A DNA stretch of 64,000 bases from Acidaminobacter sp. (lineage in GTDB: Bacteria; Bacillota; Clostridia; Peptostreptococcales; Acidaminobacteraceae), in assembly GCF_030247605.1 (NCBI RefSeq), contig NZ_JAOTSB010000018.1, forward strand, positions 2,463 to 66,462, written 5' to 3'. Every line of letters begins with the position of its first letter. The first letter of the stretch is position 1. Position numbers and translations under genes: made by a program. This document shows, in pieces, positions 4,274 to 25,684 of the stretch. Below the pieces are notes generated by a model, which was not told the DNA's origin, did not search any database, and saw only the letters and a program-made list of their open reading frames with translations.

Positions 4274-4297
4274 ATCTCACCTGCTCACGTTAAGTTC

Positions 4298-9189: not shown

Positions 9190-9206
9190 TTCAGAACCCC
9201 CTCAAC

Positions 9207-10679: not shown

Positions 10680-10932
10680 TGTGTTTCCTCCTCATAAAAA
10701 CTTAAAATCAGCTATTTGAAGCGATAAAATTTCATCCCTTTATTATATCAGAAATTTTAGATGGCACCAACCTGAACGCTTTTCAAGTCAGAAGAAATAG
10801 TGAAAGATTTTATATGTAAACAATGTGTGAACACCATGACGCTTTTTCTCCTTTTAGGTGTATAATACTATTACTGAGTCATTCAAAACAGATGATGCAA
10901 AAAATCTTATTTAGGTGAGGGATCCCGTCCAT

Positions 10933-12357: not shown

Positions 12358-12374
12358 AGGTGAGAAAAAAACAG

Positions 12375-12416
12375 GAACCGGCGTCTTTTTCGCGCCGGTT
12401 CTGATTTGTTTTTTGC
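12375..12416 (+). terminator. Intrinsic terminator after the GPH transporter gene
   Basis: GAACCGGCG/CGCCGGTTC stem followed by a T-rich tract. Confidence 0.75.
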
Positions 12417-12420
12417 ATTA

Positions 12421-12492
12421 AAATAGACAGATGGTCATCAATGTGATTTCCATCTGTCTATTTTTGAGGGGCTGCGTTGCAGCAACCCCTTC
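12421..12492. terminator. Two hairpins between convergent genes (rpsA terminator region)
   Basis: ATAGACAGATGG/CCATCTGTCTAT 12-bp stem flanked by A/T runs, plus a GGGGCTGC...GCAGC..CCCC hairpin next to the rpsA stop. Confidence 0.6.
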
Positions 12493-12516
12493 ATTATAAT
12501 CTCCAAACTCGCTTAA

Positions 12517-13683
12517 TTACTCTTCCTCAGAAGCCTCAACATCATCAGAGAACGCGCCGTCAACAGTTGCTTCGATAGTCTCGACAACTTCTGCTTCTTC
12601 CGCTTCCTCAGCCGCTTCTTCTTCAGCTTCCTTCATGGAAAGCTTGATTCTGCGGTTTTCGAGATCCACATCCAGGAGCTTGACGAGACGCTTCTCGCCG
12701 ACTTTAAGCTCGTCAGAAGGCTTCTCTACACGCTTGCGCGCGATTTGAGAAACGTGGACAAGGCCTTCAACACCCGGCTCGAGCTCGACGAATGCACCAA
12801 AGTCAGTCAGATTGACGACTTTGGACTCGAAGATGCCGCCGATTGTGTAGTGATCCATGAACGTCGTCCAAGGGTCGCCTTTGAGCTGCTTAATGCTGAG
12901 GGAAATCTTCTCAGTTTCTTTATCGATAGAAATAACTTTGACTTCTACGACATCACCAATTTTGACAACTTCCTGCGGCTTGTTGATGCGGCCCCAAGTG
13001 AGTTCTGAAATGTGTGCCATGCCGTCGATGCCGCCGAGGTCGATAAAGACGCCAAAGCTTGTGATGCGCTTGACTTCGCCTTGAACGACAGCGCCTTCAA
13101 AGACTTTTTCCCAAACCGCTTCCTTCTTCGCAGCGTTCTCTTTTTGAAGAACAGTCTTGCGTGAGAAGACAGCGCGGCGCTTTTCGCGGTTGAACTCGAT
13201 GATTTTGACCATCATTGTCTTGCCAACGTATTCCTTGAGATCGTTGACATAACGGGTAGAAATCTGGGATGCAGGGATAAAGCCGCGCGCTTCCTGATAG
13301 TAAGCGACGACGCCGCCTTTGACGGTTTCAGTGACTTTGACTTCAATCTCCTGCTCAGCAGCATAAGCTTCCTCGAGAAGACCCCAGTCTGCGTACATGC
13401 TGACGCGCTTGAGGGACAAGAGGACGTTGCCGTCGCCATTGTCATTTTTGATGACATAAACTTCGATTTCCTGATTCTCTTCGAAAACGCTGAGATCAGC
13501 TGGTGTTGCTGCGCTTGAGATCTCTTCGAGAGGAATGACGCCATCCGCTTTATATCCAATGTTGACGATGATCTCGTCACTTTTGACCTGGACAACTTTG
13601 CCTTTTACGATCGATCCGCTGCGCGGAGCGCGTAAAGACTCGTCAATCTGATCCATGAATTGTTCCATTGAGTTGTTTTCCAT
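12517..13683 (-). CDS. rpsA: 30S ribosomal protein S1 (four S1 domains)
   Basis: Repeated G.VV.G.V....GVFIDLGG-type S1 motifs and an acidic C-terminal tail. Confidence 0.9.
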   Translation of the reverse strand: MENNSMEQFMDQIDESLRAPRSGSIVKGKVVQVKSDEIIVNIGYKADGVIPLEEISSAATPADLSVFEENQEIEVYVIKNDNGDGNVLLSLKRVSMYADWGLLEEAYAAEQEIEVKVTETVKGGVVAYYQEARGFIPASQISTRYVNDLKEYVGKTMMVKIIEFNREKRRAVFSRKTVLQKENAAKKEAVWEKVFEGAVVQGEVKRITSFGVFIDLGGIDGMAHISELTWGRINKPQEVVKIGDVVEVKVISIDKETEKISLSIKQLKGDPWTTFMDHYTIGGIFESKVVNLTDFGAFVELEPGVEGLVHVSQIARKRVEKPSDELKVGEKRLVKLLDVDLENRRIKLSMKEAEEEAAEEAEEAEVVETIEATVDGAFSDDVEASEEE

Positions 13684-13699
13684 GTAGGTTACCTCGCCT

Positions 13700-14572
13700 T
13701 CAACTATTTGAAATTTTTTTTAACTGATTCAAGATGTCATCCATCACCCAATCCGGTGTGGATGCTCCAGCCGTTATTCCTATATTATCACAGTTCAACA
13801 AATTTATCATCTGTAAATCTGCCGCAGATTCAATAAAATAGGTATTTTCACAATTTTTTTTACAAATTTCGTAGAGTTTCTTTGTATTTGACGAATGGGG
13901 ACCCCCTACCACCAGCATGCAGTCGACTTCGGAAGAAAGGGTCTCTGCGCTCGCCTGTCGTTCGGAGGTGGCTTTGCAGATCGTGTTGTGTGCGACAAGA
14001 TGCATGGCGCGCTCAGATAGGTGTGCGTAAACCGAGTCCCACAGAGACAGGCGTATGGTTGTCTGTGCCACCAGCATGAGGGGGTGGGAGAAGTGACCAT
14101 CGGCAGATATGTTCTGGCTCTCCCAAGCCACAAGCGCCTCCAGAGAATCCACCACAAACACCGGACCATGACACCAGCCGGCAATGCCGACAACCTCCGG
14201 ATGCGTGGCAGTGCCTACAATCATTACTGCTGAACCATCCTGACTGAAGCCGTCCACGAGTCTGTGGATTTTTTTTACGAAAGGACACGTGCCATCCACC
14301 AATGGAATTCCAAGGGAAGCCGCCTCATCGTGAAAGGACTTGGGGACACCGTGGGAACGGATGACCACGGTTTTGCCGGTACCCTGAACCTCCTTCAGAT
14401 CCTCAATGACGCTGACGCCTTCTTGTTCCAGCTTTCGAACCACATCCCGGTTGTGAATCAGCTCGCCATAGGTGACCGCGCCTGCAGGAGCCTTCCTGGC
14501 ATCCAAAGTCAGCTCCAGTGCACGCTTGACGCCAAAGCAAAATCCGGAGGCAGAGGCTATTCTGATATTCAT
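13700..14572 (-). CDS. ispH: 4-hydroxy-3-methylbut-2-enyl diphosphate reductase
   Basis: MNIRIASASGFCFGVKRA start and conserved cysteines. The ATG at 14572 is preferred over the longer ORF start at 14617. Confidence 0.92.
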   Translation of the reverse strand: MNIRIASASGFCFGVKRALELTLDARKAPAGAVTYGELIHNRDVVRKLEQEGVSVIEDLKEVQGTGKTVVIRSHGVPKSFHDEAASLGIPLVDGTCPFVKKIHRLVDGFSQDGSAVMIVGTATHPEVVGIAGWCHGPVFVVDSLEALVAWESQNISADGHFSHPLMLVAQTTIRLSLWDSVYAHLSERAMHLVAHNTICKATSERQASAETLSSEVDCMLVVGGPHSSNTKKLYEICKKNCENTYFIESAADLQMINLLNCDNIGITAGASTPDWVMDDILNQLKKISNS

Positions 14573-14576
14573 GGAC

Positions 14577-15167
14577 CTATGCCCTCCCCTTGTAAAGCTC
14601 AATGTGAGCATAGACATTTTTTAGAATCTCAAACACCGCATTTTCATAATCCGGACCGGTGGGTTTGCCCTCAAACTGAAGGGTTACCAAGGGATGGATA
14701 ATGATCCGCACTTTTGAGAAAAATTTATAGGTTGAATCTATGGTCACCGGCTGAATGGGTACCCCAGCCTTGTGTGCAATCATGCCCACACCCGCTTTGG
14801 GCGGCAGCGGGGTCAGACCCGGATTACGCGTTCCTTCCGCAAAAATCAGCACGCTTTCCCCACCTTTGAGAAACCGCAGCGCCGCCTTGACCGCGCCAAT
14901 ATCGTTGCCGGTCCGGTCCACGGGGAACCCGCCGCAGCCCCTGAAGAACCAATCGAAAAGCCGGTTGCTGAACAGCTCTTTTTTAGCCATGAAGCGGATG
15001 TAGTCCGGGATAAAGGTGCCAAACACCAGCGGATCTTTGTAATCGATATGATTGGGACAGACGACTTTGGGCTGAGCGGGGTCCCAGTTTTCGCGTCCAA
15101 CGACCTCTACCCGGTAGATCACCCGGTAAAGCACATTGAAAATGAATTTGATAAATACCTTCAGCAC
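14577..15167 (-). CDS. plsC: 1-acyl-sn-glycerol-3-phosphate acyltransferase
   Basis: NHIDYKDP (NHxxxxD) and FAEGTR acyltransferase motifs. Confidence 0.9.
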   Translation of the reverse strand: MLKVFIKFIFNVLYRVIYRVEVVGRENWDPAQPKVVCPNHIDYKDPLVFGTFIPDYIRFMAKKELFSNRLFDWFFRGCGGFPVDRTGNDIGAVKAALRFLKGGESVLIFAEGTRNPGLTPLPPKAGVGMIAHKAGVPIQPVTIDSTYKFFSKVRIIIHPLVTLQFEGKPTGPDYENAVFEILKNVYAHIELYKGRA

Positions 15168-15916
15168 GGAGGCGCCTCCCCTCTTCGCAACTTTTCTACA
15201 GCGTCGCAGATAGCTGCCACGACCTGGTCAATACTCTTTCCCGTGGTATCAATGCGAAACGCGTCCTCCGCCATGACCAGCGGAGAATCCTCGCGGCTGC
15301 TGTCCACCTGATCCCGGTGGGCAATGTCTTTAAGGATCGTGTCGAAGTCTGCGGAAAAGCCCCGGGCTTCAAACTCCAGGAACCGCCTGCGTGCCCGCTC
15401 TTCAAGGGAGGCTGTCAGGAAGAATTTGTAGCGCGTTTCAGGGAGCACCACGGTGCCAATATCGCGGCCGTCCATGACGACGCTTCGGCCCTCTGCCTGG
15501 GCGCGCTGCATTTTGACCAGGTGCCTGCGCACTGCCGACATGGCAGCTACCTGAGAGACCCGGCGGGTGACTTCCTGAGTCCGGATGGCCTCTGAGACGT
15601 CCCTTCCGTCCAGAATGACCTGTTCAGTGTAGAGCTCCAGGCCGGTGGTATCCAGAAGGTGATCAATTTCGAGGTCGAGTTCAGGGGTCAGTTCGGGGGT
15701 GCTTTGGAGTGTGTTTTCGCGACCATCGGCAAATCCATCCAGCTTATGAAAGAGGCCGGTTTCAATGAACTTCAGGGCAATGGCCCGGTACATGGCGCCG
15801 GTGTCTATATAGTCACAGCCCAGCGCTTTGGCCACCCTGCGGGCAACAGTGCTCTTGCCCGAGCCGGCGGGCCCGTCCAGCGCAATCTGGATTTTACTAG
15901 TCGAATCTGATTCCAT
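15161..15916 (-). CDS. cmk: Cytidylate kinase, carrying a roughly 25-residue internal insertion
   Basis: IALDGPAGSGKST P-loop, then DTGAMYR and MDGRDIGT. 251 aa, against about 225 aa typical. Confidence 0.92.
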   Translation of the reverse strand: MESDSTSKIQIALDGPAGSGKSTVARRVAKALGCDYIDTGAMYRAIALKFIETGLFHKLDGFADGRENTLQSTPELTPELDLEIDHLLDTTGLELYTEQVILDGRDVSEAIRTQEVTRRVSQVAAMSAVRRHLVKMQRAQAEGRSVVMDGRDIGTVVLPETRYKFFLTASLEERARRRFLEFEARGFSADFDTILKDIAHRDQVDSSREDSPLVMAEDAFRIDTTGKSIDQVVAAICDAVEKLRRGEAPPC

Positions 15917-16119
15917 ATGGCAAAACTCCTTCGTTGAAAATGCTTATCATCTCATTATAATACAATATAAAAAGCGTCGCAAGGCCGGCGGTCCATAGTT
16001 TGCAAGGGACCCATCAGCGCGTGTCTGAATTAAACCACCTATACTGACTAAAGCGCGTAAATTGCCTAAACCGCCAGGGGAACCGAAAAATTTTCACAAA
16101 AAGCTTCTTGAACCAACAC

Positions 16120-16151
16120 AAAAAGGAGGCCGCGTCTTTGGCTGGCCTCCC
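16120..16151 (-). terminator. Intrinsic terminator after the RpiR-family gene
   Basis: GGAGGCC...GGCCTCC hairpin followed by a U-run on the minus strand. Confidence 0.65.
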
Positions 16152-16203
16152 CCCTGCATTTCATGGATGACATGCGCACCGGCCTGAACAGGCGGTCACA
16201 GAA

Positions 16204-17070
16204 TCACTTAGGGTTGTAGATCTTATATTCGTTCCAGATATTCTCGAGCTTCTCGAAGTTTTCTTCCACACGTTCCATTTCCTTGATCGAAACCATCTGG
16301 ATCAGCGCGTTGATGAGGCTCATAGGCGCGACCAGGGAGTCGATAAAGGTATTCATGCCGTAGCGGGCGAAGAGTGAGTGCTTGACCATAGGCACAAGGG
16401 GCGCCATAGGGCTGTCTGTGATGCCTATTATAGTCGCCCCCTGAGTCGTCGCAAACTCAACGATCTCAAAGGTCCGCTTCGCGTAGCGCGGGAAGGAAAT
16501 GGTGATGAGCAGGTCGTCTTTGGTGATATTGACGAGGTGGTCAAAGACATCCAGCGCGCCGGCAGTGACCACGACCACATCCTTCAGGATGAAGTTGAGG
16601 TAAAAGCCGAGGTAATTGGCCAGAACGGAGGAACTGCGCATGCCCAGGATATAGACGCGCCGGGCGTTGTGAATCTCCTCGACGATCTGGGGCATGGTCT
16701 CTTCATCCACGCCGTCCAGCGTGCGCCGGATGTTGTCCATGTCCGCGTTCATGACCTTTTTCGTATAACTGGATTCCTTCTCCAAATCCTTGGAAAGCTC
16801 AAAGCGCTGAACTGTGGTCAGCTTGGTCTTGATGGATTCCTGAAGACCCTTCTGCAGCTTGGGATACCCGTCATAGCCCAGGGCGTTGGCAAAGCGTACG
16901 ACCGTGGATTCGCTCACGCCCGTAGAATCACCCAGGGTGGAAGCTGTCATAAACGCCACTTTGTCGTAGTTCTGGAGGATAAAGTCAGCAATCCGCTTTT
17001 GACCTTTACTCAGTTTAATATAATTTTTCTCTATGCGATTGAGTAAATCATTATGATCGGCCATGGCCAA
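16204..17070 (-). CDS. MurR/RpiR family transcriptional regulator (HTH_6 + SIS)
   Basis: N-terminal LSKGQKRIADFIL...STVVRFANALGYDGY HTH and a C-terminal SIS domain. Confidence 0.9.
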   Translation of the reverse strand: MAMADHNDLLNRIEKNYIKLSKGQKRIADFILQNYDKVAFMTASTLGDSTGVSESTVVRFANALGYDGYPKLQKGLQESIKTKLTTVQRFELSKDLEKESSYTKKVMNADMDNIRRTLDGVDEETMPQIVEEIHNARRVYILGMRSSSVLANYLGFYLNFILKDVVVVTAGALDVFDHLVNITKDDLLITISFPRYAKRTFEIVEFATTQGATIIGITDSPMAPLVPMVKHSLFARYGMNTFIDSLVAPMSLINALIQMVSIKEMERVEENFEKLENIWNEYKIYNPK

Positions 17071-17090
17071 GACCGCCCTTCCTGGGATAA

Positions 17091-17627
17091 TTAATTGTTG
17101 ACCAATGCATAGCCTTCAATGAGGGCTGAGCGGTTGAGGTCAATGGTGCCCTTTGGAACGCGGGCGAGGACTGCGCCTTCAACTTGCTCTCTGGTCAGAA
17201 CGTCAATCAGTTCAGTGAGTACGCCGATGGCGACAATATTAGCAACAATGCCTTTGCCGAGCTTGTCTGTCGCCGTGCTGATGATTGGAAGGCTGTAAAT
17301 CTTGCCAGCCTTCAGATCCGCAGGAAGCGTGATGGAGTCGTCAACGACGACAATACCATTTGGATTGATGCCTTTGATATACTTGTCGCAAGCGTCTTGT
17401 GTAAGGGCCAGGAACAAGTTGAGATCCTGAACCTTAGGGAAGTCGATCTCAGCGTCGCTGATGATGACTTCAGCCTTGGAAGCGCCGCCGCGGGCTTCAG
17501 GGCCGTAGCTTTGTGTCTGAATGGCATTGAGGCCGGAGTTGATGGCCGCCTCCGCCAGAATGATTCCTGCCAGGATCAGGCCTTGTCCGCCGGATCCGGA
17601 GAGTCTGAGTTCAAATTGGTTTCCCAT
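17091..17627 (-). CDS. korC: 2-oxoacid:ferredoxin oxidoreductase gamma subunit
   Basis: ELRLSGSGGQGLILAGIILAEAA signature. Confidence 0.88.
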   Translation of the reverse strand: MGNQFELRLSGSGGQGLILAGIILAEAAINSGLNAIQTQSYGPEARGGASKAEVIISDAEIDFPKVQDLNLFLALTQDACDKYIKGINPNGIVVVDDSITLPADLKAGKIYSLPIISTATDKLGKGIVANIVAIGVLTELIDVLTREQVEGAVLARVPKGTIDLNRSALIEGYALVNN

Positions 17628-17632
17628 GACAA

Positions 17633-18457
17633 TTACTCCTTCCTCAAGCGGTCTACGATTTTTTGGTACTCAGCCGAGTATTCAGGCAGCTGCGTGTTGT
17701 GCTTGAACTCGCCCATCAGGAACTTGCCCTGGAGCTGTTCCGGCGTCATACGCTCAGCGGCTTTGACGTCGACGAAGGACTCTTTGAGGAAGTTCATCAT
17801 AGCGACAGCAGAGCCTTTTTTGTTCTTACGGCCGTAGTAAGTCGGGCAGACGGAAATCGCTTCAACGAGGGAGAACCCTTCGTGTGCAATCGCTTTCTGG
17901 ATGTAGTTCGTCATTTGAGTCGCGTGGAACGCTGTAGTTCTGGCAGCGTAAGTTGCGCCGGCAGCAGCAGCGAGGTTCGCGATGTCAAACGGACGGTCGA
18001 TGTTGCCGTAAGGCGCGGTGGTGCCAAAATCGCCATGCGGCGTCGTTGGTGAGTACTGACCGCCGGTCATGCCGTAGATGTTGTTGTTAAAGACGATCGT
18101 CGTGATGCCGATGTTTCTTCTGGCAGCATGGATCAAGTGGTTGCCGCCTATAGCAGACGCGTCGCCGTCACCGGAGATGACGATGACTTTCATGTCAGGC
18201 TTCGCAAGCTTGATGCCTGTAGCAAACGCGAGCGCACGGCCATGGGTCGTGTGAAGCGTGTTGAAGTCCATGTAGCCAGGGGCTCTGGAAGAGCAGCCAA
18301 TACCCGATACAATTGTGACCTTGTCTTTGTCAAGACCGAGGTTTTCAATGGCGCGGATGATGGAGTGCATGATGATGCCGTGGCCGCAACCCGGGCACCA
18401 GATATGCGGAAGGCGCGAGTCGCGCATATACTTGCTGACAAGTTCGCTGTTCTTCAC
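17633..18457 (-). CDS. korB: 2-oxoacid:ferredoxin oxidoreductase beta subunit (TPP-binding)
   Basis: WCPGCGHG and GDGD..AIGGNH TPP motifs. Confidence 0.9.
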   Translation of the reverse strand: MKNSELVSKYMRDSRLPHIWCPGCGHGIIMHSIIRAIENLGLDKDKVTIVSGIGCSSRAPGYMDFNTLHTTHGRALAFATGIKLAKPDMKVIVISGDGDASAIGGNHLIHAARRNIGITTIVFNNNIYGMTGGQYSPTTPHGDFGTTAPYGNIDRPFDIANLAAAAGATYAARTTAFHATQMTNYIQKAIAHEGFSLVEAISVCPTYYGRKNKKGSAVAMMNFLKESFVDVKAAERMTPEQLQGKFLMGEFKHNTQLPEYSAEYQKIVDRLRKE

Positions 18458-19594
18458 TTATAAAACCTCCTTGACTTTTTTCACGATATCTGAAGGTACA
18501 AAGACATCGCCATCAGCACGTCCGAGGAAGTGAAGCTCAGCTTCCGATTTGACGACGCGCTCGACTTCCAGCATCAGCTGGCCAAGGTTGTGCTCAACGA
18601 CGAGAACTTTATTGACTTGCTTGGCGCGGGCGAGGGTCGCCTCTACCGGATACGGCCAGATGGTGATAGGTCGCAGCATGCCGACTTTGATGCCTTCAGC
18701 GCGAAGCTTGTTGATGGCATTTTTTGCAGTTCTCGCTGTAGAACCGTAAGCCACGATCATGATTTCAGCGTCATCCATGAGGTACTCGTCATAAGAGATC
18801 AGGTCCTCGAGGTTGTCCGTGATTTTAGCCATGAGGCGGTTGATTTTAACGCCAGCCTTGACGGTGCTGTTCGTTGGGAAGCCCATGTCGTCGTGGAAGA
18901 GGCCGGTGATGTGGTAACGGTAGCCTTCACCGAAGCCAGCCATACGAGGCACGAGGTCGCCTTCGCGAACGCCGTAAGGAATGTAATCTTCACCTTCAAC
19001 CGGCTTTAAGCGGTCAAAGATCTCAAGCTCGTCCGCGTTCGGGATCTCAATGCGCTCGCGCATGTGACCGACGACTTCGTCCGGCATGAGGATGACAGGT
19101 GTTCTATATTTTTCAGCAAGATTAAAGGCGCGAACTGTTTCGTAGTACATTTCAGTGACGGACTGCGGTGAAATGGCGATGACCGGATGGTCGCCGTGAG
19201 TACCCCACATAGCCTGCATGACGTCGCCCTGACCAGGTGACGTAGGAAGACCTGTAGACGGGCCGCCGCGCATGACGTTGACGATGACGAGCGGAATCTC
19301 AGCAAGCGCCGCGTAGCCAATGTTTTCCTGCTTCAGTGAGAAACCGGGACCACTTGTAGCCGTCATGGATTTGAAGCCGGCGATGCTTCCGCCGATCGCT
19401 GCAGCAATACCTGCAATCTCATCTTCCATTTGGATGAATTTACCGCCGACTTCAGGGAGCTTTTCCGCTGAGCCCTCAGCAATTTCTGTGGACGGTGTGA
19501 TTGGATAGCCGGCGAAGAACTTCATGCCGGCAGCGAGTGCGCCAGCGACGCAAGCTTCATTGCCCTGCATGAGTTTGACGATGCGTTTACTCAT
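18458..19594 (-). CDS. korA: 2-oxoacid:ferredoxin oxidoreductase alpha subunit
   Basis: MQGNEACVAGALAAG..FFAGYPITPSTEI N-terminus. Confidence 0.9.
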   Translation of the reverse strand: MSKRIVKLMQGNEACVAGALAAGMKFFAGYPITPSTEIAEGSAEKLPEVGGKFIQMEDEIAGIAAAIGGSIAGFKSMTATSGPGFSLKQENIGYAALAEIPLVIVNVMRGGPSTGLPTSPGQGDVMQAMWGTHGDHPVIAISPQSVTEMYYETVRAFNLAEKYRTPVILMPDEVVGHMRERIEIPNADELEIFDRLKPVEGEDYIPYGVREGDLVPRMAGFGEGYRYHITGLFHDDMGFPTNSTVKAGVKINRLMAKITDNLEDLISYDEYLMDDAEIMIVAYGSTARTAKNAINKLRAEGIKVGMLRPITIWPYPVEATLARAKQVNKVLVVEHNLGQLMLEVERVVKSEAELHFLGRADGDVFVPSDIVKKVKEVL

Positions 19595-19802
19595 TGTCTA
19601 TACCTCCCAAAAAAATGGCGAAATCCGGGCAGCGCAGTTCACACTGACCGCACTTGATGCAGTTCTCACGATCATTCATGTTCACTTTGCCATTATCGTC
19701 GAATCCGAGGACTTTTTTAGGGCAGAACGCGATACAGATGCCGCAACCTTTACACCAATTTTTGTTGATCTTGATTTCCAGTTGCTCTTTACTCTTGCTC
19801 AA
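19587..19802 (-). CDS. korD: 2-oxoacid:ferredoxin oxidoreductase delta subunit (2x[4Fe-4S] ferredoxin)
   Basis: CKGCGICIAFCP and CIKCGQCELRCP clusters; TTG start 8 nt after GGAGG. Confidence 0.85.
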   Translation of the reverse strand: MSKSKEQLEIKINKNWCKGCGICIAFCPKKVLGFDDNGKVNMNDRENCIKCGQCELRCPDFAIFLGGIDNE

Positions 19803-19879
19803 GTCAACGACCTCCTTAAGAATAACTACATTTCAATGATAACACATAGTCACAATTTTGCAAGATAGATTTCATCTTA

Positions 19880-19897
19880 TTATGAAATCTTTCACAA
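19880..19897 (-). promoter_or_regulatory. Rex-like operator candidate upstream of the kor operon
   Basis: The minus strand reads TTGTGAAAGATTTCATAA, against the Rex consensus TTGTGAAnnnnTTCACAA. It lies just upstream of a putative TTGCAA(-35)/TGtTATCAT(-10) promoter and overlaps the 9-bp palindrome AGATTTCAT/ATGAAATCT. Confidence 0.35.
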
Positions 19898-20057
19898 AAT
19901 CGCAAGTTGACGTGCATAAAGTATAATTGTGCGTGTGTATTTTGGTATACAAAAAGAGATTCTGCCGATGGTCACATCTTCTATCCCCTTCTCCAATCTG
20001 GGTTCGGGCGGGATGCTCACTGTGGTTTGGTGGTGGCGGGAAACCATCGGCTCAAAA

Positions 20058-20114
20058 AAGGAAAAAAACGCGTTTGTTTGTTTATTCATTAACAAACAAT
20101 TGAACGCGTTTTTA
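20058..20114 (-). terminator. Intrinsic terminator after surE
   Basis: AAACGCGTT...AACGCGTTT stem with an inner TTGTTTGTT/AACAAACAA stem and a U-run on the minus strand. Confidence 0.65.
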
Positions 20115-20127
20115 TTCATTATTTAGC

Positions 20128-20883
20128 CTACTCCAGTTTAAATTGATCGCTGTCTATCAGCGGCTCGTGGAAGTCGTTGAAATTGAAGCGGATAGGCGTG
20201 AGGCTCACCCGGTTCCGGGAAATGGCGTAGACATCCGTGTCGATCTGATCCGGCGGGATCAGGAGGTCGCCGGCGATCCAGTAGTACTCCCCGCCTCGGG
20301 GGCTGGTGCGGCGCTGGACGGAATTTTCGTAGACCATTTTTCCGAGCTTGCAGTAGGAAATGCCTTCGTAATCATCTGCCGGCGGGAAGTTGATGTTGAC
20401 GGCGTTATAGTCCCATTTGAAGGCGGACAGCAAGGTTTCGAGGTTGTCGCGGATAAATTCGGCGGCTTTACGAAAACCGGATTCTGCGCCGGAATAATGG
20501 GAAATGGCGAAACTCGGGATGCCGTGGAAGCTGCCTTCCAGCGCGGCAGCGACCGTGCCGGAATAAATGACGTCGATGCCCAGGTTAGGGCCGTTGTTGA
20601 TGCCGGAGAGGACCAGGTCGAACTTGACCTCTTCAAACTTGGCGAGACCAATTTTGACGCAGTCCGCTGGAGTGCCGTTGATGGCCCACTCTGCTGAGCT
20701 TCCCGGATAGAGGTGGGTCCGGCGGGCGTGGACGATGTCGTGCATGGTCAGCGCGTGACTCTTGGCGCTCTGCTGATACTCCGGCGCAGCGATATAGACT
20801 TGGTGATGGGGTATGAGGGCTTCGGCGAGGGCTTTCAGACCGGCGGCCTGGATGCCGTCGTCGTTGCTGATGAAGATGTTCAT
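20128..20883 (-). CDS. surE: 5'/3'-nucleotidase SurE
   Basis: MNIFISNDDGI start at 20883. The 52-codon upstream extension of the ORF overlaps the neighbouring gene and is not expected for SurE. Confidence 0.9.
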   Translation of the reverse strand: MNIFISNDDGIQAAGLKALAEALIPHHQVYIAAPEYQQSAKSHALTMHDIVHARRTHLYPGSSAEWAINGTPADCVKIGLAKFEEVKFDLVLSGINNGPNLGIDVIYSGTVAAALEGSFHGIPSFAISHYSGAESGFRKAAEFIRDNLETLLSAFKWDYNAVNINFPPADDYEGISYCKLGKMVYENSVQRRTSPRGGEYYWIAGDLLIPPDQIDTDVYAISRNRVSLTPIRFNFNDFHEPLIDSDQFKLE

Positions 20884-20923
20884 AGAGGGATCACTGCCTT
20901 TCAGGGTGTGACTGTTTAGGTTG

Positions 20924-21364
20924 TTAAAGCTGGACGGGGGCTTTTTTAGCGCTGTTGCAGCCTTGGCAGCCTCTGTCGAAGAACGGGTCGATTTCGAGGG
21001 CGAGGCGGTCCTTAACCTCCGGATCTGCTTCAAAGCCAAAGCGGGTCAGGTAGCCCGAGATTTCGGTATTGTTGTCAGCATAAACCCAGCCGAAGCCGCG
21101 GTTGAGCATGTAGAACATAATGGCTCTCAGGAGACCATCGGCAAACTTTTTGTTTCTGAGGGCAGGCGTCATATAGAGGTGGCGGATGGTGGGATCCAGA
21201 ATGACGAGCTCCGCGGTGACAAAGCCGAGGACCTTTTCCTTTTCCCGTGCGACGACAACTTCGAGGTTTTGAGGGAAATTCGCAGGGACGGTGATCCCCT
21301 CTTCCTCTATGAATTTCTGAAGATCTGCGAAATCTTCTTTTTCAGCGGTTTTTAAAAGCATCAT
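20924..21364 (-). CDS. GNAT-like N-acetyltransferase (tentative)
   Basis: 146 aa with an acetyltransferase-like VVAREKEKVLGFV...LYMTPALRNKKFADGLL segment; family call is weak. Confidence 0.5.
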   Translation of the reverse strand: MMLLKTAEKEDFADLQKFIEEEGITVPANFPQNLEVVVAREKEKVLGFVTAELVILDPTIRHLYMTPALRNKKFADGLLRAIMFYMLNRGFGWVYADNNTEISGYLTRFGFEADPEVKDRLALEIDPFFDRGCQGCNSAKKAPVQL

Positions 21365-21415
21365 GATAGTCAGGCTCCTTTGTGTTTTGAAATTTTCGAA
21401 CGGTTTTGATGGTAG

Positions 21416-21575
21416 GTGACAGGCGCCAGTTTGAAGTGAGTGTCTGACACTGAGTTGAAGTGAGTGTCTGACACTGAGTTGAAGTGAGTGTCTGACACTG
21501 AGTTGAAGTGAGTGTCTGACACTGAAATCGTTTCGGTGCCAGAGCTTGCGAGAATGTTTCTCAATAAATGTCGTT
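21416..21575. repeat. 24-bp phased array (6 units) plus conserved tail
   Basis: Cores at 21416 (GTGACAGGCGC), at 21440, 21464, 21488 and 21512 (GTGTCTGACAC, four identical 24-bp units) and at 21536 (GTGCCAGAGCT). Tail is TGCGAGAATGTTTCTCAATAAATG. Confidence 0.9.
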
Positions 21576-22299
21576 ATTTAAGAGCTTTCAACGCTGCTAC
21601 TTCTTCCGGGGTCAGGTGGCGCCAGGCTCCGGACTTTAAATCTCCGAGTTCCAGCGGACCTATGGACAGGCGGCGAAGGCGTTTGACATTGGCACTGAGC
21701 GCTTCGACCATTCTGCGGATCTGACGGTTCTTTCCTTCGCGGATCCCCACAATCAGCCCTTTGCCCTTCTGTCTTTCGACGAAAGCCGGCTGAGTGACGT
21801 AGTCCCCAATATCAACGCCGTCACGCAGCTTTGCAAGCTCGGTATCCGTCAGTAAGCGATCAGTCTCAACGTAGTAGCGCTTTTCGAATTCATGGCTCGG
21901 GTGGGTCAGGAGGTGGGTTAGGGCGCCGTCATCGGTTAAGAGGATCAGGCCTTCGGAGTCATAGTCCAGTCGGCCAACGGGATAAACCCGGCGGTCAATC
22001 CGGACCAGATCCAGTGCGGTGGGCCGGCCAAAGTTGTCCTTGACGGAGGTGATGTAGCCCGTGGGCTTGTTGAGCATCACGTAGACGTGATCGGCGGCTG
22101 TCTGGATCAGGGTGCCATCGACTTCAACCCGGTCACTCTCGGGTGAAATGGAGGTGCCAAGCTCGCGGACAACCTCACCGTTGACCTTGACCCTGCCGTC
22201 GAGGATCATCCCCTCCGCACTTCTGCGGGAGGCGACGCCGCAGTGGGCCATATATTTCTGAAGCCGCATCATTGTCTTCGAATCGGTTGTAGTGGTCAT
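21574..22299 (-). CDS. rluB: 23S rRNA pseudouridine synthase (RluB/RsuA family)
   Basis: S4 domain (RLQKYMAHCGVASRR) plus the GRLDYDSEGL catalytic motif. Confidence 0.9.
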   Translation of the reverse strand: MTTTTDSKTMMRLQKYMAHCGVASRRSAEGMILDGRVKVNGEVVRELGTSISPESDRVEVDGTLIQTAADHVYVMLNKPTGYITSVKDNFGRPTALDLVRIDRRVYPVGRLDYDSEGLILLTDDGALTHLLTHPSHEFEKRYYVETDRLLTDTELAKLRDGVDIGDYVTQPAFVERQKGKGLIVGIREGKNRQIRRMVEALSANVKRLRRLSIGPLELGDLKSGAWRHLTPEEVAALKALK

Positions 22300-22982
22300 A
22301 GTGTTTCGTCCCTTTCGTAGGGGATGGTAACGTCATCCTCTTCGGACAAAGCGCTCTGTTCAGCTGCAGTCGTTTCTGAAACCGATCCGTCCGACCCATC
22401 CAACCCATCCGAACCATCCGTTTCATCCGCTTCACGGGCCTCAAGCAGGTTGATCAGACGCTCGGCGCCGTCAAAGGTCGTGAGATCCGGAAGCTCTTCC
22501 AGGGACCTCAGACCAAAAGTTCTGAGAAACTCGTCCGTCGTGCCGTAAAGCATCGGTCGGCCAATCTTCTCCAGCCTGCCCTTTTCTTCAATAAGCCCGC
22601 GCTCGATCAAAATCTGCAGGGGCTTGTCCGACTTGACGCCCCGGGTGTAATCGATCTCCGACCGGGTCACAGGCTGTTTGTAGGCGATAATGGCGAGTGT
22701 CTCCAGCGTCGCCGGGGACAAGCCTCTGGATTTAGTGGTCTTCATGACGCGCTCGATAAAGTCTGCATTTTCCGGTGCGCTGGCCATCTGAACGGCGTCG
22801 CGGATGAACAGCAGGCGCATCCCCCGCTCCCCGGACTCGTATTCCTTGCGCAGGGTTTCCAGCAGTTCCACGGTCCAGCTCATGGGTAGATCCAGGGCTG
22901 CCGCCAGCCGGTCGATTGCCACAGGCTCGCCGCTGACAAACAGAATGGATTCTATGGCGCTTCGGTAGGAACGTTCTTCCAT
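22296..22982 (-). CDS. scpB: Segregation and condensation protein B
   Basis: SAIESILFVSGEPV N-terminus and the LETLAIIAYKQPVTRSEID winged helix; repetitive acidic DGSDG tail. Confidence 0.9.
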   Translation of the reverse strand: MEERSYRSAIESILFVSGEPVAIDRLAAALDLPMSWTVELLETLRKEYESGERGMRLLFIRDAVQMASAPENADFIERVMKTTKSRGLSPATLETLAIIAYKQPVTRSEIDYTRGVKSDKPLQILIERGLIEEKGRLEKIGRPMLYGTTDEFLRTFGLRSLEELPDLTTFDGAERLINLLEAREADETDGSDGLDGSDGSVSETTAAEQSALSEEDDVTIPYERDETL

Positions 22983-25099
22983 CAGTCGGTCTCCCCTTCT
23001 TCATCGTAGTGGTCTTCTTTGTGGTTTTTGTTTTGGTTATCGCCGCGGGCTTGTGGGTTTTGGACCTGGGAACCATCGGCAGCGGTATTGGTGTCTTGGG
23101 ACTGAGACGTCTCATACCAGTGCTCCAGCAGGGACTCCTGAATCAATTCCTCTTCAGTTTCCGATGGTTCCCTGCGCCGAATCAGGATGCCGCTGAACAT
23201 CTCGTCCTGAACCACACGAACGCGCTTCAGCTTCAAAAGCTCAAGAAGGGCCAGAAACGTGGTTACAACGACGTTGCGGGTTGCGCCGCCCTCGAACAGG
23301 GCTTCAAAGGAAATGTCGTTCACTTCCTTGAGGCGGGCCGTCAGCGCCTTGATGGCGTCCTCCACGGCGTAGGGCTCACGGTTCAGGGTAGAGAAAAAAT
23401 GCTCTCTGTGGGTATCGGTGCGATCCAGTTTGGTGAGCACCCGTTTTAGGGCTTCTGTGAGAAGGTCAATCTCGGTAGGCTCGTTGAGGGTTTCCGGATT
23501 CTGAGGGAGGATTTCAGAGAGATCTGAGGCCTCCCGAGTGAAATAAGCGCCGTCCTGCAGCTCGAGGCCACTGAGGAGCCTTGCGGCTTCCTTGTAGCGC
23601 TTGTACTCGACGAGTTTGGTGACGAGCTCCGTACGCGGGTCCTCGGCCACATCCCAGGCTTCGAAAATGCCCGCTTCACGGTCCGGCAGCAGCATCATGG
23701 ACTTGATCTCAAGGAGCGTGGCGGCCATGACCAGGAATTCGCCGGCAATGTCGACGCGTGCCGTTTCCATATGGATCAGGTAGTCGAGGTACTGGGTGCA
23801 GAGGGTGGCCACAGGGATATCGTAGATATCGATTTCGTTGTCCTGGATCAGGTGGAGCAGGAGGTCCATAGGGCCTTCGAAGGCATCCAGCTTGACGGAG
23901 TAGGCGGCATTGCCGGATGGGGATGGTGAATGGGATTCGGGTTGGGTTGGGTGATCATCGGCATCTGGTTGGTCTTTTGGGGGTGTTGCAAGTTCGGGTT
24001 TATGTGGAAGGACCTCGTGGAGGTTCAGTTGCTGGGCCAGGGCGTCTGGGGACGTGGTGTTCAGTGCGCGGGCCGCATTTTTGAGTTTGCGGGGCAGCGA
24101 GCACTGTCGGAAGCGCTCTGCGAAGTCCGGGGAGGTTTGGGAAAAATAACCGAACAGGTGACTCGCCTTGTCGTCACCGCAGAGACCGGGGGCGTGCTCG
24201 ACGACCCGGGCAAAGGCTATGGCCTGGATCAGGGCCTCAGAGGTTGGTGCTGTGTTGTCCTCTGTTGTGATCAGAAGACCTAGGTCGAGCATCAAGCGAA
24301 CAGCCTCTTCGCAGTGGCCGTCACTGAAGTTGAGGAACAGCTCGCGCATAATGCGGTCATTGGTCAGGGTTTTCAGTACACCCGCTTCTATGGCTTCTTT
24401 CATTTGTTTTTCTGTTGTGTCCACCGGGGTCAGACCTACTCGGGCCATGTAGCGGACCGCGCGGTACAGACGGGTGGGATCGTCGTAAAAGCTCTGGTCA
24501 TGAAGGACTCTAAGGGCTTGGGCTTTCAAGTCGTCGAGGCCTTTTAGGGGATCCAGCAGCTGGATCAGGATCGTGCGGGTGGTGCTTAAGTCGCATGTTT
24601 CAGGGTCCACATAGTCCAGGAGTTCCAGCTCGAGGGCCATGGCATTGACGGTGAAGTCCCGGCGTTTCAGGTCGTCCTCAATGGTGCCCGGCGTGACTGT
24701 GGGAAGCTGGCCAGGAGCTTCATAGCGTTCGCTGCGGGCGGTGATCAGATCGATCTCCCCTGTGTCCAGGATGCCTGAGGCGGTCATGAAGCGGTCGTAG
24801 TACTGCCAGTCAATGTTAGTGAGGCGGTCGGTTAGTTTGGTGATCTCGCCTTCTATCACCACGTCCAGGTCGCGGACGTCGCTGCCTAGAATCAGGTCAC
24901 GGACAGCACCGCCGACGAGGAAGACTCTGAGGGTGGCGTTTGGAGTTTCGGATTTATAATCTTCAGCTGCGAGCAGAAGCTGGGTCAAAATGCCGTCGTG
25001 GGCGCGATTCAGTGCGTTGACCCTGTCTTCAAGGTGCGCAATGAGTTCTTCCAGCGGCAGTGCCAGCAGCGATTGAGTTTGAGTGATTAGGTCGGTCAC
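22982..25099 (-). CDS. scpA: Fusion protein: CCA-adding/poly(A) polymerase family nucleotidyltransferase (N-terminal about 390 aa) + ScpA kleisin (C-terminal about 300 aa)
   Basis: N-terminal part has LVGGAVRDLILG..VRDLDV, RSERY, DLKRRDFTVNAMA and FYDDPTRLYRAVRY. After a P/Q/D/S-rich linker comes YSVKLDAFEGPMDLLLHLIQDNEIDIYDIPV (ScpA N-terminus). Single 705-codon frame, ending where scpB starts. Confidence 0.8.
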   Translation of the reverse strand: MTDLITQTQSLLALPLEELIAHLEDRVNALNRAHDGILTQLLLAAEDYKSETPNATLRVFLVGGAVRDLILGSDVRDLDVVIEGEITKLTDRLTNIDWQYYDRFMTASGILDTGEIDLITARSERYEAPGQLPTVTPGTIEDDLKRRDFTVNAMALELELLDYVDPETCDLSTTRTILIQLLDPLKGLDDLKAQALRVLHDQSFYDDPTRLYRAVRYMARVGLTPVDTTEKQMKEAIEAGVLKTLTNDRIMRELFLNFSDGHCEEAVRLMLDLGLLITTEDNTAPTSEALIQAIAFARVVEHAPGLCGDDKASHLFGYFSQTSPDFAERFRQCSLPRKLKNAARALNTTSPDALAQQLNLHEVLPHKPELATPPKDQPDADDHPTQPESHSPSPSGNAAYSVKLDAFEGPMDLLLHLIQDNEIDIYDIPVATLCTQYLDYLIHMETARVDIAGEFLVMAATLLEIKSMMLLPDREAGIFEAWDVAEDPRTELVTKLVEYKRYKEAARLLSGLELQDGAYFTREASDLSEILPQNPETLNEPTEIDLLTEALKRVLTKLDRTDTHREHFFSTLNREPYAVEDAIKALTARLKEVNDISFEALFEGGATRNVVVTTFLALLELLKLKRVRVVQDEMFSGILIRRREPSETEEELIQESLLEHWYETSQSQDTNTAADGSQVQNPQARGDNQNKNHKEDHYDEEGETD

Positions 25100-25565
25100 C
25101 GGGACCCCTCCTTCTTTAACTCAATTATTATAACAAAAAGCCTGCCTTGGTCATAGTGCGGGGCTGGAAATTTTGCTTGACGCGGTGTTGGGGTTGTCGG
25201 GGTACATCATGGAGAAAGTGGATTAGGTTGTATGCAATGTAGTTTACTTTCTGTGGGATGTACTCTAAAACTTTGAAATATTTGCGACCATCGGCACAAA
25301 TTTAGGTTATTGTCATTAATTTTCGATATTTATTGACAAAATTTCGAGCTTGATTTTGTGAACTTTTACAAATAGTCAGACTTTTAATTTTGTGATACAT
25401 TTGTAACCAGCAACAGATCAAAGTGCCTGCACGCAGTCCGGAAACCATGGGTTCGCCAGACTGACGGCATTGAGACGCTGCGAAACAATAGCGCACTACA
25501 TACCAGACACCACAACTTCATACACGTAGGCAATCGTGAAGATGAATCGCATTCAAGCTTCATAC

Positions 25566-25612
25566 GGCCGGCAGTCAGGGGTTTACAAACCTCTGTTTGC
25601 CGGCCTTTTTTA
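25566..25612 (+). terminator. Intrinsic terminator inside the 5' leader of the second NCS2 permease (attenuator)
   Basis: GGCCGGCA...TGCCGGCC stem followed by TTTTTT, 73 nt upstream of the ATG at 25685. Confidence 0.7.
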
Positions 25613-25684
25613 TTTCACAAGGAGGGATTCAACCTTAATTTTTTCAGGCGGCGCTACTCACCTACTTTTTGAGGAGGAACACAC

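What the first reader, a model, noticed from the sequence alone, without database searches (positions are those of the whole stretch)
22982..25099. CCA-adding/poly(A)-polymerase-family nucleotidyltransferase fused to the SMC kleisin ScpA
A single 705-codon frame joins a complete-looking nucleotidyltransferase head and neck to a complete ScpA. The head has GGAVRDLILG..DLDV, RSERY, RRDFTVNAMA and DDPTRLYRAVRY. ScpA begins at YSVKLDAFEGPMDLLLHLI. A roughly 45-residue P/Q/D/S-rich linker joins them. Reading the linker codons, I find no in-frame ATG, GTG or TTG between the two domains. The first Met (in FEGPMDLL) would delete conserved ScpA N-terminal residues that contact the SMC neck. The stop abuts scpB as in normal scpA-scpB operons. 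I am not aware of a kleisin fused to a tRNA-nucleotidyltransferase-like domain. It would tether an RNA- or nucleotide-modifying or binding module to the condensin complex, or represent a recent gene fusion.
Basis: partly seen in the sequence, partly recalled or inferred. Interest (0 to 1): 0.7.

Follow-up and report, generated by a model that had tools for sequence, protein, structure and literature searches.

The report
tRNA-nucleotidyltransferase fused to condensin kleisin ScpA
In this Acidaminobacter genome one real gene joins a tRNA-tail-adding type of enzyme to ScpA, the protein that closes the bacterial chromosome-organising SMC ring; the rare architecture arose twice independently from two neighbouring genes and appears undescribed in the literature searched.

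Summary
Window 22982-25099 (minus strand) is one 705-codon ORF with a promoter-like site, a strong Shine-Dalgarno and a GTG start. It encodes a class-II nucleotidyltransferase module (aa ~11-365), a ~43-aa disordered linker and a full-length ScpA (aa 399-650). Its stop overlaps the scpB start.

It is not an artefact. The same fusion occurs in ~27 protein clusters from independent assemblies, including the isolate Acidaminobacter hydrogenoformans. Among 1.84 billion representative proteins only two lineages carry it: Acidaminobacter-like Clostridia (group A) and an Eisenbacteria-like lineage (group B).

Domain trees and synteny indicate two independent fusions of a recurrent adjacent gene pair (NTase|scpA|scpB), which stays split in relatives from several phyla.

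All catalytic motifs are invariant. dN/dS is 0.10-0.26 for the NTase and 0.01-0.07 for ScpA, while the linker evolves near neutrally. The NTase is closest to the Thermotoga CCA-adding and Aquifex A-adding enzymes. In group A it lacks the tRNA-elbow-binding tail.

Best reading: a single bifunctional polypeptide made of two autonomous modules. Whether tethering the enzyme to condensin has a function is untested.

Verdict: new variant of known kinds; interest moderate (0.5).

The parts
25127..25154 (-). Promoter-like site (ATGACC, 16-nt spacer, TG-extended TATAAT) upstream of the fusion gene
   Evidence: 10 of 12 consensus matches with TG before the -10 hexamer. It is a consensus match only. The scan found no other minus-strand promoter-like site inside the gene.
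25105..25113 (-). Shine-Dalgarno AAGGAGGGG, about 6 nt upstream of the GTG start
   Evidence: upstream sequence TTAAAGAAGGAGGGGTCCCG|GTG. The GTG (VTDL...) start is conserved in L085, L086, L001 and L087.
22982..25099 (-). Whole fusion ORF: 705 aa plus stop, NTase-linker-ScpA. Identical to WP_300688215.1, annotated only as 'segregation/condensation protein A [Acidaminobacter sp.]'
24935..25099 (-). aa 1-55: N-terminal helical hairpin packed on the NTase
   Evidence: helices 16-33 and 37-51, pLDDT about 95. dN/dS 0.18-0.34 in pairs with unsaturated dS.
24500..24934 (-). aa 56-200: class-II NTase head domain. Contains GGAVRD...DLD (catalytic D77 and D79), RSERY and RRDFTVN.
   Evidence: Pfam PF01743 at 5.7e-20. 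Motif residues are invariant in 15 fusion proteins from both groups. dN/dS 0.10-0.26. pLDDT above 90.
24035..24499 (-). aa 201-355: NTase neck, with the nucleotide-selecting DDPTR..R..R motif, and helical body. The tail domain is absent.
   Evidence: NF041569 model covered only to 724 of 880; Foldseek match to 3h38, 4wby and 1vfg. dN/dS 0.12-0.24.
23906..24034 (-). aa 356-398: P/Q/D/S/H-rich disordered linker with no in-frame ATG, GTG or TTG
   Evidence: pLDDT about 30; dN/dS 0.29-1.4. The R337-to-Y400 spacing, which contains the linker, varies from 49 to 125 aa within group A.
23150..23905 (-). aa 399-650: full-length ScpA kleisin, comprising the N-terminal SMC-neck-binding helices, the central ScpB-binding region and the C-terminal winged helix
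   Evidence: Pfam PF02616 covering 1-229 of 232 at 1.9e-34. NCBIfam ScpA models covering 4-249 of 251. PDB 3w6j at 2.6e-35. dN/dS 0.014-0.07.
22982..23149 (-). aa 651-705 plus stop: acidic and polar low-complexity C-terminal tail. The stop overlaps the scpB ATG.
   Evidence: dN/dS 0.41-1.07. pLDDT about 30.
22296..22982 (-). scpB, translationally coupled to the fusion gene (TGATG overlap)
   Evidence: Its orthologue in L001 carries PF04079.
21574..22299 (-). rluB-type pseudouridine synthase, the next gene of the conserved cluster
   Evidence: The orthologues in L001 and L002 carry S4 plus PseudoU_synth_2.

Best explanation
This is a genuine gene encoding one ~80-kDa polypeptide. It joins a class-II tRNA nucleotidyltransferase module, from the clade of the Thermotoga CCA-adding and Aquifex A-adding enzymes, to the N-terminus of the kleisin ScpA through a flexible low-complexity linker.

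Origin: an NTase gene lies immediately upstream of scpA-scpB in several phyla. Loss of the NTase stop codon and intergenic spacer joined the two genes. In the Acidaminobacter lineage the tRNA-elbow-binding tail of the NTase was also lost. The same kind of event happened independently in an Eisenbacteria-like lineage.

How it most likely works (inferred): the two modules act autonomously. The ScpA part closes the Smc ring, with its N-terminal helices on the Smc neck and its C-terminal winged helix on the Smc head cap, and it binds ScpB, which is translated from the coupled downstream gene. The NTase part keeps a competent active site for adding nucleotides to RNA 3' ends, most likely tRNA. One consequence is that each Smc-ScpAB complex carries one tethered NTase, expressed in 1:1 ratio with the kleisin.

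Shown here: the architecture, the recurrence, the independent origins, purifying selection on both modules, the near-neutral disordered linker, and the absence of an internal start. Inferred only: enzymatic activity, substrate, compatibility with Smc binding, and any benefit of the tether.
For: - ORF, expression signals and coupling to scpB.
- Both domains supported.
- Recurrence: 27 protein clusters carry PF01743 plus PF02616. Fused loci in an identical context come from NCBI, JGI, ENA and Logan assemblies.
- Rarity: in the exhaustive search only two 50%-identity representatives cover both halves, P0012 at 1041 bits and P0121 at 876 bits. The next hit scores 367 bits and has one domain.
- Split relatives: 10 of 80 loci holding related standalone NTases have scpA/scpB downstream, and in L012, L029, L053 and L072 the genes are directly adjacent. 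L084 (Ca. Eisenbacteria) and L088 are split versions of the group-B locus, and L012 is syntenic with group-A locus L089.
- Independent origins: an A+B clade appears in 0 of 200 bootstraps in both domain trees. Group B nests with split relatives in 200/200 (ScpA) and 110/200 (NTase) replicates.
- Active-site conservation: GGxVRD, DxD, RxExY, RRDFTxN, D..DL and DDPTR..R..R are invariant in all 15 aligned fusion proteins.
- Selection: dN/dS is 0.10-0.26 for the NTase, 0.014-0.07 for ScpA, 0.29-1.4 for the linker and 0.41-1.07 for the C-terminal tail.
- Structure: the linker has pLDDT about 30 and the NTase above 90.
- Literature: the C-terminal body/tail of A-adding enzymes restricts specificity rather than being described as needed for catalysis (PMC3925840, read).
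Against: - No experimental data exist on the protein product, its activity or its Smc binding.
- Group A lacks the roughly 100-aa tail that anchors the tRNA elbow (PMC3925840). tRNA may therefore be bound poorly, or the substrate may have changed.
- The NTase stem branch of group A is long, and its nearest unfused relatives are only about 35-37% identical. That fits altered function after the fusion.
- The NTase reaches no NCBIfam equivalog cutoff.
- Proteolytic cleavage in the linker after translation cannot be excluded.
- I could not determine whether these genomes carry another CCA-adding enzyme.
- The AF2 model gives low confidence for the ScpA part as a monomer, so it says nothing about contacts between the modules.
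Confidence: 0.7

Rival explanations
1. Functional coupling. The tether is selected because the NTase module links Smc-ScpAB to RNA. For example, binding the 3' ends of nascent or immature tRNA could position or retain condensin at highly transcribed tRNA/rRNA genes, or it could concentrate tRNA 3'-end repair on the nucleoid.
For: - The same rare fusion arose twice independently.
- The NTase-scpA neighbourhood recurs in loci labelled Bacillota, Armatimonadia, Spirochaetales and Ca. Eisenbacteria.
- The active site stays under purifying selection after the fusion.
- B. subtilis SMC and yeast condensin are reported to accumulate at tRNA and rRNA genes, as summarised in PMC4937444.
Against: - The scpA-scpB neighbourhood is a general housekeeping cluster (xerD, trpS, lysA, rluB, cmk, plsC, ispH, rpsA, miaB), so adjacency need not mean shared function.
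- The linker is near neutral and variable in length, and no conserved interface between the modules is evident.
- The architecture is confined to two lineages among 1.84 billion representatives, which argues against a broadly advantageous coupling.
- No literature links ScpA to a tRNA nucleotidyltransferase.
Confidence: 0.17
2. One ORF, two proteins. The full-length product is only a precursor. ScpA and the NTase are separated by proteolysis in the disordered linker or by non-canonical internal initiation, so the cell effectively has the ancestral two proteins.
For: - The linker is long, disordered and nearly neutral, which makes it an easy protease target.
- Canonical ScpA has a free N-terminus close to the conserved Y-x-V-K/R-L-D-x-F-E-G-P segment.
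Against: - There is no in-frame ATG, GTG or TTG and no Shine-Dalgarno-like site between aa 300 and M411, and the simple scan finds no internal minus-strand promoter.
- The linker has no conserved motif that could act as a specific cleavage site.
- Natural ScpAs with N-terminal extensions of 40-60 aa exist (P0122, L029 ScpA), so a free N-terminus right at the conserved segment is not required.
Confidence: 0.1
3. Degenerate appendage. The NTase half is a catalytically dead remnant kept only as a structural or regulatory N-terminal domain of ScpA, for example a nucleotide sensor.
For: - The tail domain is lost in group A.
- The group-A stem branch is long and the NTase evolves faster than ScpA.
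- The PolyA_pol_RNAbd match falls below its Pfam threshold.
Against: - Every catalytic and nucleotide-selecting residue is invariant across both independent fusion groups.
- dN/dS of 0.10-0.26 is typical of a working enzyme.
- The predicted fold is confident and superimposes on active CCA- and A-adding enzymes.
- Group B keeps the full-length enzyme, including the tail.
Confidence: 0.03

Closest known systems
Bacterial kleisin ScpA of the Smc-ScpAB complex (Geobacillus and Bacillus; PDB 3w6j, 3zgx, 4i98)
   Same: - The ScpA profile is covered in full (Pfam 1-229 of 232; NCBIfam 4-249 of 251).
- The match to Geobacillus ScpA in PDB entry 3w6j has E = 2.6e-35.
- scpB lies immediately downstream and is translationally coupled, followed by the rluB-cmk cluster.
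   Different: - It carries a ~400-aa N-terminal addition, made of an NTase module and a linker, in front of the Smc-neck-binding helices.
- It has a 55-aa low-complexity C-terminal tail.
- NCBIfam equivalog cutoffs are not reached (227.9 bits against a cutoff of 315).
[quoted passage not shown]
   Same: - Head, neck and body fold match (Foldseek E about 1e-17 to 1e-16 over about 330 columns).
- Sequence matches reach E about 1e-33 to 1e-34.
- It has the same DxD, RRD and DDPTR..R motifs as TmCCA.
   Different: - The C-terminal tail that anchors the tRNA elbow is missing in group A, although group B has it.
- The module is covalently attached to a kleisin.
- It has an extra N-terminal helix pair.
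- Whether it adds CCA, A alone or something else is unknown.
Split NTase|scpA|scpB operons (L012 Clostridiaceae bacterium 35-E11; L084 Ca. Eisenbacteria MAG; L088; L029; L053; L072)
   Same: They have the same gene order and flanking genes as the fused loci: xerC-NTase-scpA-scpB-rluB-cmk, or punA-pdp-...-NTase-scpA-scpB. The NTase belongs to the same subfamily, with NF041569 as its best match.
   Different: They are two cistrons with a stop codon and a spacer of 3-170 nt, or a short overlap. The NTase is full length, at 410-481 aa including the tail.
~880-aa DHH-CBS-NTase proteins (NCBIfam NF041569, 'A-adding tRNA nucleotidyltransferase')
   Same: The NTase catalytic half gives the best NCBIfam match for the window protein. 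One such protein (L046, 876 aa) sits in the equivalent slot upstream of M50-trpS-scpA-scpB.
   Different: In those proteins the extra domains (DHH phosphoesterase and CBS) are N-terminal to the NTase. Here the added partner is C-terminal and is a kleisin. The window protein scores 116 bits against a cutoff of 1440.

Membership tests
ScpA (SMC_ScpA, PF02616; kleisin of Smc-ScpAB) | Full-length match to the ScpA profile above the curated threshold, covering the N-terminal helical domain through the C-terminal winged helix | tested here: met
   Pfam gives 120.1 bits against a gathering score of 24.6, covering 1-229 of 232. NCBIfam models cover 4-249 of 251 but fall below their equivalog cutoffs. 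PDB ScpA chains match at 2.6e-35 and 4.4e-25.
ScpA (SMC_ScpA, PF02616; kleisin of Smc-ScpAB) | Operon partner scpB immediately downstream | tested here: met
   scpB lies at 22296-22982 and its ATG overlaps the fusion stop. The orthologous loci carry PF04079.
ScpA (SMC_ScpA, PF02616; kleisin of Smc-ScpAB) | Binds the Smc neck and head cap and an ScpB dimer | not testable with these tools
   This needs pull-down, crystallography or in vivo cross-linking. The monomer AF2 model of the ScpA part has low confidence.
Class-II nucleotidyltransferase (PolyA_pol head, PF01743: CCA-adding, A-adding, CC-adding, bacterial PAP) | Head domain with GGxVRD and the catalytic DxD carboxylates | tested here: met
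   PF01743 gives 72.4 bits against a gathering score of 23. G63, G64, R67, D68, D77 and D79 are invariant in 15 fusion proteins.
Class-II nucleotidyltransferase (PolyA_pol head, PF01743: CCA-adding, A-adding, CC-adding, bacterial PAP) | Motif B (RRD), motif C (D..DL) and the neck motif D ((E/D)DxxR..R) that select the ribose and base | tested here: met
   R146-R147-D148-F149-T150, D183/D190/L191 and D206-D207-P208-T209-R210/R213/R216 are invariant. The pattern is the same as in TmCCA (alignment).
Class-II nucleotidyltransferase (PolyA_pol head, PF01743: CCA-adding, A-adding, CC-adding, bacterial PAP) | [quoted passage not shown] | tested here: inconclusive
   Head, neck and body are predicted with pLDDT above 90 and superimpose on 3h38, 4wby and 1vfg. 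The tail segment is absent in group A but present in group B and in split relatives.
tRNA CCA-adding or A-adding enzyme (functional equivalogs NF041569, TIGR02692, PRK13299, PRK10885) | Score above the curated equivalog cutoff | tested here: not met
   Scores are 116.4 against 1440, 100.7 against 438.8, 77.4 against 290 and 80.4 against 451. The split neighbours and group B also stay below the cutoffs.
tRNA CCA-adding or A-adding enzyme (functional equivalogs NF041569, TIGR02692, PRK13299, PRK10885) | Adds C74, C75 and/or A76 to tRNA 3' ends | not testable with these tools
   This needs an enzyme assay. The window holds no tRNA genes with which to judge whether CCA is genome-encoded.

The most novel reading that the evidence does not exclude
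The physical linkage is adaptive. A tRNA 3'-end-binding and -modifying enzyme is carried by the bacterial condensin ring. It couples Smc-ScpAB positioning or loading to nascent tRNA and other highly transcribed RNA genes, or it places tRNA end repair on the nucleoid. The cross-phylum NTase-scpA synteny would then reflect an unrecognised functional partnership between tRNA maturation and chromosome organisation.
Probability: 0.15. Interest if true: 0.8.

Novelty: new variant of a known kind. Interest (0 to 1): 0.5.

Why it matters
Kleisins are normally small adaptor proteins without enzymatic domains. A natural kleisin that carries an apparently active RNA nucleotidyltransferase is therefore unusual.

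- If the modules are independent, the protein is a natural experiment. It would show that the ScpA N-terminus tolerates a ~45-kDa cargo on a flexible tether, which is useful for engineering Smc-ScpAB. It is also a clean example of convergent fusion of operon neighbours.
- If the tether matters, it offers a direct and testable handle on the long-noted but poorly explained association of SMC complexes with tRNA and rRNA genes.
- The tail-less NTase of group A is a natural C-terminal truncation of an A-adding/CCA-adding-type enzyme, relevant to how the tail controls specificity.
- Public annotation is incomplete: NCBI calls the protein only 'segregation/condensation protein A'.

Tried and rejected
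- Assembly or frameshift artefact: rejected. The fusion occurs in about 27 clusters and in independent NCBI, JGI, ENA and Logan assemblies with identical context.
- Internal translation start for ScpA: rejected for canonical codons.
- Single origin followed by horizontal transfer of the fused gene between the two lineages: rejected by the domain trees, where an A+B clade appears in 0 of 200 replicates, and by lineage-specific synteny with split loci.
It returned neither the Acidaminobacter genome nor any group-B genome. The taxonomy of group B is therefore only inferred, from its closest split relative, a Ca. Eisenbacteria MAG. The scan still produced the synteny result.
- Second class-II NTase: none in the 64-kb window. 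The whole genomes could not be searched, so I cannot say whether the fused NTase is the only CCA-adding-type enzyme.
- tRNA genes: none in the window, so I could not check whether CCA is genome-encoded.
- AF2 gave low confidence for ScpA as a monomer, so no inference about inter-module contacts was drawn.
- Literature searches for ScpA or kleisin together with nucleotidyltransferase or CCA-adding terms found nothing relevant.
Full report
**1. The observation**

- Window 22982-25099 on the minus strand is a single 705-codon ORF that starts with GTG.
- Pfam supports a PolyA_pol head at aa 59-197 (5.7e-20) and a full-length SMC_ScpA at aa 417-640 (1.9e-34, covering 1-229 of 232 profile positions). 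The neck model PolyA_pol_RNAbd scores below its threshold.
- NCBIfam ScpA models cover aa 399-646. CCA/A-adding models cover aa 55-312, and none reaches an equivalog cutoff.
- The linker at aa 356-398 is P/Q/D/S/H-rich.
- No in-frame ATG, GTG or TTG occurs between aa 300 and M411, and no Shine-Dalgarno-like site is in place there.
- The annotated GTG is preceded by AAGGAGGGG and by an extended -10 promoter-like site at 25154-25127. The scan shows no minus-strand promoter-like site inside the gene.
- The stop overlaps the scpB ATG as TGATG.
The one correction is that the NTase is complete through head, neck and body but lacks the tail.

**2. Not an artefact, but rare**

- A search of 5.8 billion protein clusters found 27 clusters with PF01743 plus PF02616. 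They form two groups.

| Group | Members | Identity to window protein | Length | Notes |
|---|---|---|---|---|
| A | P0001-P0017 | 56-95% | 650-750 aa | includes the isolate Acidaminobacter hydrogenoformans |
| B | P0018-P0027 | ~42% within each aligned domain | ~750-790 aa | high G+C |

- The window protein is identical to WP_300688215.1 / MDK9711436.1, annotated 'segregation/condensation protein A [Acidaminobacter sp.]'. The genus belongs to Acidaminobacteraceae, Peptostreptococcales, Clostridia.
- Fused loci from NCBI, JGI, ENA and Logan assemblies share the context fusion-scpB-rluB-GNAT-surE. The group-B context is xerC-fusion-scpB-rluB-cmk-plsC-ispH-rpsA.
- An exhaustive profile search of 1.84 billion 50%-identity representatives found only two proteins covering both halves: P0012 at 1041 bits and P0121 at 876 bits. 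The third hit scored 367 bits and had one domain.
- The architecture is therefore real and confined to two lineages.

**3. Origin**

Even so, 10 of the 80 loci returned carry scpA/scpB downstream on the same strand.
- Reading-frame analysis shows separate, directly adjacent genes in L012 (Clostridiaceae bacterium 35-E11), L029, L053 and L072.
- In L010, L015, L028, L046 and L067 the gap is 1.6-2.7 kb and is filled by an M50 peptidase and trpS.
- The closest standalone relatives of the group-B NTase sit in the same xerC-NTase|scpA|scpB-rluB-cmk context as fused L002. These are P0123 in L084, from a Candidatus Eisenbacteria MAG, and P0125 in L088.
- The most divergent group-A locus, L089 (punA-pdp-...-fusion-scpB), is syntenic with split L012 (punA-pdp-dacB-NTase|scpA|scpB).
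- In neighbour-joining trees of each domain, groups A and B never form a clade (0 of 200 bootstraps). Group B nests with split relatives in 200/200 (ScpA) and 110/200 (NTase) replicates. Group A's ScpA sits with Firmicute ScpAs.
- Two independent fusions of a recurrent neighbouring gene pair is the parsimonious history.
- No unfused ScpA closer than about 46% identity to the group-A ScpA appeared in the searches. The fusion is thus fixed throughout the sampled group-A clade and is not recent. dS is saturated against the more distant members.

**4. What the modules are**

- NTase module:
  - It matches the Thermotoga maritima CCA-adding enzyme (3h37, 1.8e-34) and the Aquifex aeolicus A-adding enzyme (1vfg/4wbz, about 8e-33). 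These matches are far stronger than those to Bacillus CCA (1miv, 5.5e-8) or E. coli poly(A) polymerase.
  - AF2 predicts aa ~11-365 at pLDDT above 90.
  - Foldseek superimposes about 330 columns on 3h38, 4wby, 4wc2 and 1vfg at E about 1e-17 to 1e-16.
  - All scpA-linked NTases, fused or split, match best to the catalytic half of NF041569 ('A-adding tRNA nucleotidyltransferase'). Group B and the split forms cover the model to about 877 of 880, while the window protein stops at 724.
  - The alignment shows that group A lacks the ~100-aa segment carrying the conserved tail motif.
  - According to the review PMC3925840, the tail anchors the tRNA elbow, and the C-terminal body/tail of A-adding enzymes restricts them to A addition.
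- ScpA module:
  - It covers the whole family profile and matches Geobacillus ScpA (3w6j) at E = 2.6e-35.
  - Its low AF2 confidence as a monomer is expected for a kleisin that folds on its partners. That expectation rests on my own knowledge of the family.

**5. Selection**

- All catalytic and nucleotide-selecting residues are invariant in the 15 aligned fusion proteins from both groups. These are G63, G64, R67, D68, D77, D79, R122, E124, Y126, R146-T150, N152, D183, D190, L191, D206-R210, R213 and R216.
- Nei-Gojobori dN/dS values for the window gene against four group-A orthologues are below.

| Region | dN/dS |
|---|---|
| NTase head | 0.10-0.26 |
| NTase neck/body | 0.12-0.24 |
| ScpA | 0.014-0.07 |
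| Linker | 0.29-1.4 |
| C-terminal tail | 0.41-1.07 |

- The spacing between NTase residue R337 and ScpA residue Y400, which contains the linker, varies from 49 to 125 aa within group A.
- The picture is of two constrained modules joined by an unconstrained tether. It does not fit a decaying remnant.

**6. Mechanism**

- Shown:
  - one ORF with one set of expression signals;
  - no canonical internal start;
  - both modules under purifying selection;
  - a disordered linker;
  - translational coupling to scpB.
- Inferred:
  - The protein is made as one ~80-kDa chain.
  - Its C-terminal half acts as the kleisin of Smc-ScpAB.
  - Its N-terminal half remains an active RNA 3'-nucleotidyltransferase, most likely acting on tRNA. 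In group A its tRNA anchoring may be altered because the tail is gone.
  - Natural ScpAs with N-terminal extensions of 40-60 aa (P0122, L029 ScpA) suggest the N-terminus tolerates additions.
- I rate this reading at about 0.7.
- Rivals:
  - an adaptive RNA-condensin coupling (0.17);
  - cleavage after translation, or non-canonical internal initiation, giving two proteins (0.10);
  - a catalytically dead appendage (0.03).
- The scpA neighbourhood is a general housekeeping cluster: xerD, lysA, trpS, rluB, cmk, plsC, ispH, rpsA and miaB. Synteny alone therefore does not prove a functional partnership.
- Set against that are the convergent fusions, and the reported accumulation of SMC complexes at tRNA and rRNA genes (PMC4937444). 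These keep the coupling hypothesis alive.

**7. Comparison with what is known, and novelty**

- Both halves belong to well-known families.
- ScpA membership is met on the profile and operon criteria.
- Class-II NTase membership is met for the head and the motifs, but not for the complete four-domain architecture in group A. The equivalog cutoffs for CCA- or A-adding enzymes are not met.
- Full-text searches found no paper linking ScpA or kleisins to a tRNA nucleotidyltransferase.
- IMG's automatic annotation of group B does name both parts. NCBI names only ScpA.
- I classify the finding as a new variant of known kinds, with interest 0.5. It is a real, rare, convergently evolved architecture with a testable but unproven functional implication.

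Noticed in passing
window 21431-21525: A perfect tandem array of four 24-bp units (TTGAAGTGAGTGTCTGACACTGAG) lies in the intergenic region between the GNAT gene and rluB. Each unit contains the near-palindrome GTGTC-T-GACAC, so the array could be a set of operator sites or a mobile repeat.
   Followed up: partly
window 3272-22982, and L002 10280-18277: The Acidaminobacter window and the Eisenbacteria-like locus share the same long housekeeping gene order after the fusion: scpB, rluB, cmk, plsC, ispH, rpsA and a miaB-like radical-SAM gene. In the window the order is interrupted by surE, a ferredoxin/2-oxoacid oxidoreductase set and an MFS transporter, and it continues with mutS, mutL and miaA.
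   Followed up: partly
L046 4582-7212: An 876-aa DHH-CBS-NTase protein occupies the slot upstream of M50 peptidase-trpS-scpA-scpB in a Bacillota MAG. It scores 626 bits on NF041569, below the cutoff. The scpA-linked NTase therefore exists with at least three architectures: alone, with N-terminal DHH-CBS, and with C-terminal ScpA.
   Followed up: partly
proteins P0030, P0036-P0112 (sequences): Many ScpA homologues of 550-680 aa carry very long acidic, repetitive C-terminal extensions (E/P/A/I-rich) after a normal ~250-aa ScpA. These extensions end in an Arg/Trp-rich stretch that looks like an out-of-frame read-through. P0115 combines the ScpB and ScpA Pfam domains in one protein.
   Followed up: no
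protein P0027 (group B, on a 2.2-Mb ENA contig): The second half of its ScpA part is replaced by an Arg-rich sequence (…HAVRQGSGATRVLPERRRPEELLRRRGG…). This is most likely a frameshift or assembly error, or a pseudogene, within a fused gene.
   Followed up: no
L001 3610-7774 and L087 4015-7713, compared with window 25100-25684: In A. hydrogenoformans and the P0013 genome, two subtilisin-like S8 peptidase genes lie between the xanthine/uracil permease and the fusion gene. In the window and in L085/L086 they are absent, leaving an intergenic gap of about 600 bp.
   Followed up: no
L053 and L072: Two MAG contigs labelled 'uncultured proteobacterium' and 'uncultured Spirochaetales' carry closely similar high-G+C xerD-NTase-scpA-scpB-rluB loci, with neighbouring short branches in the ScpA tree. 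The similarity suggests that at least one bin's taxonomic label is unreliable.
   Followed up: no
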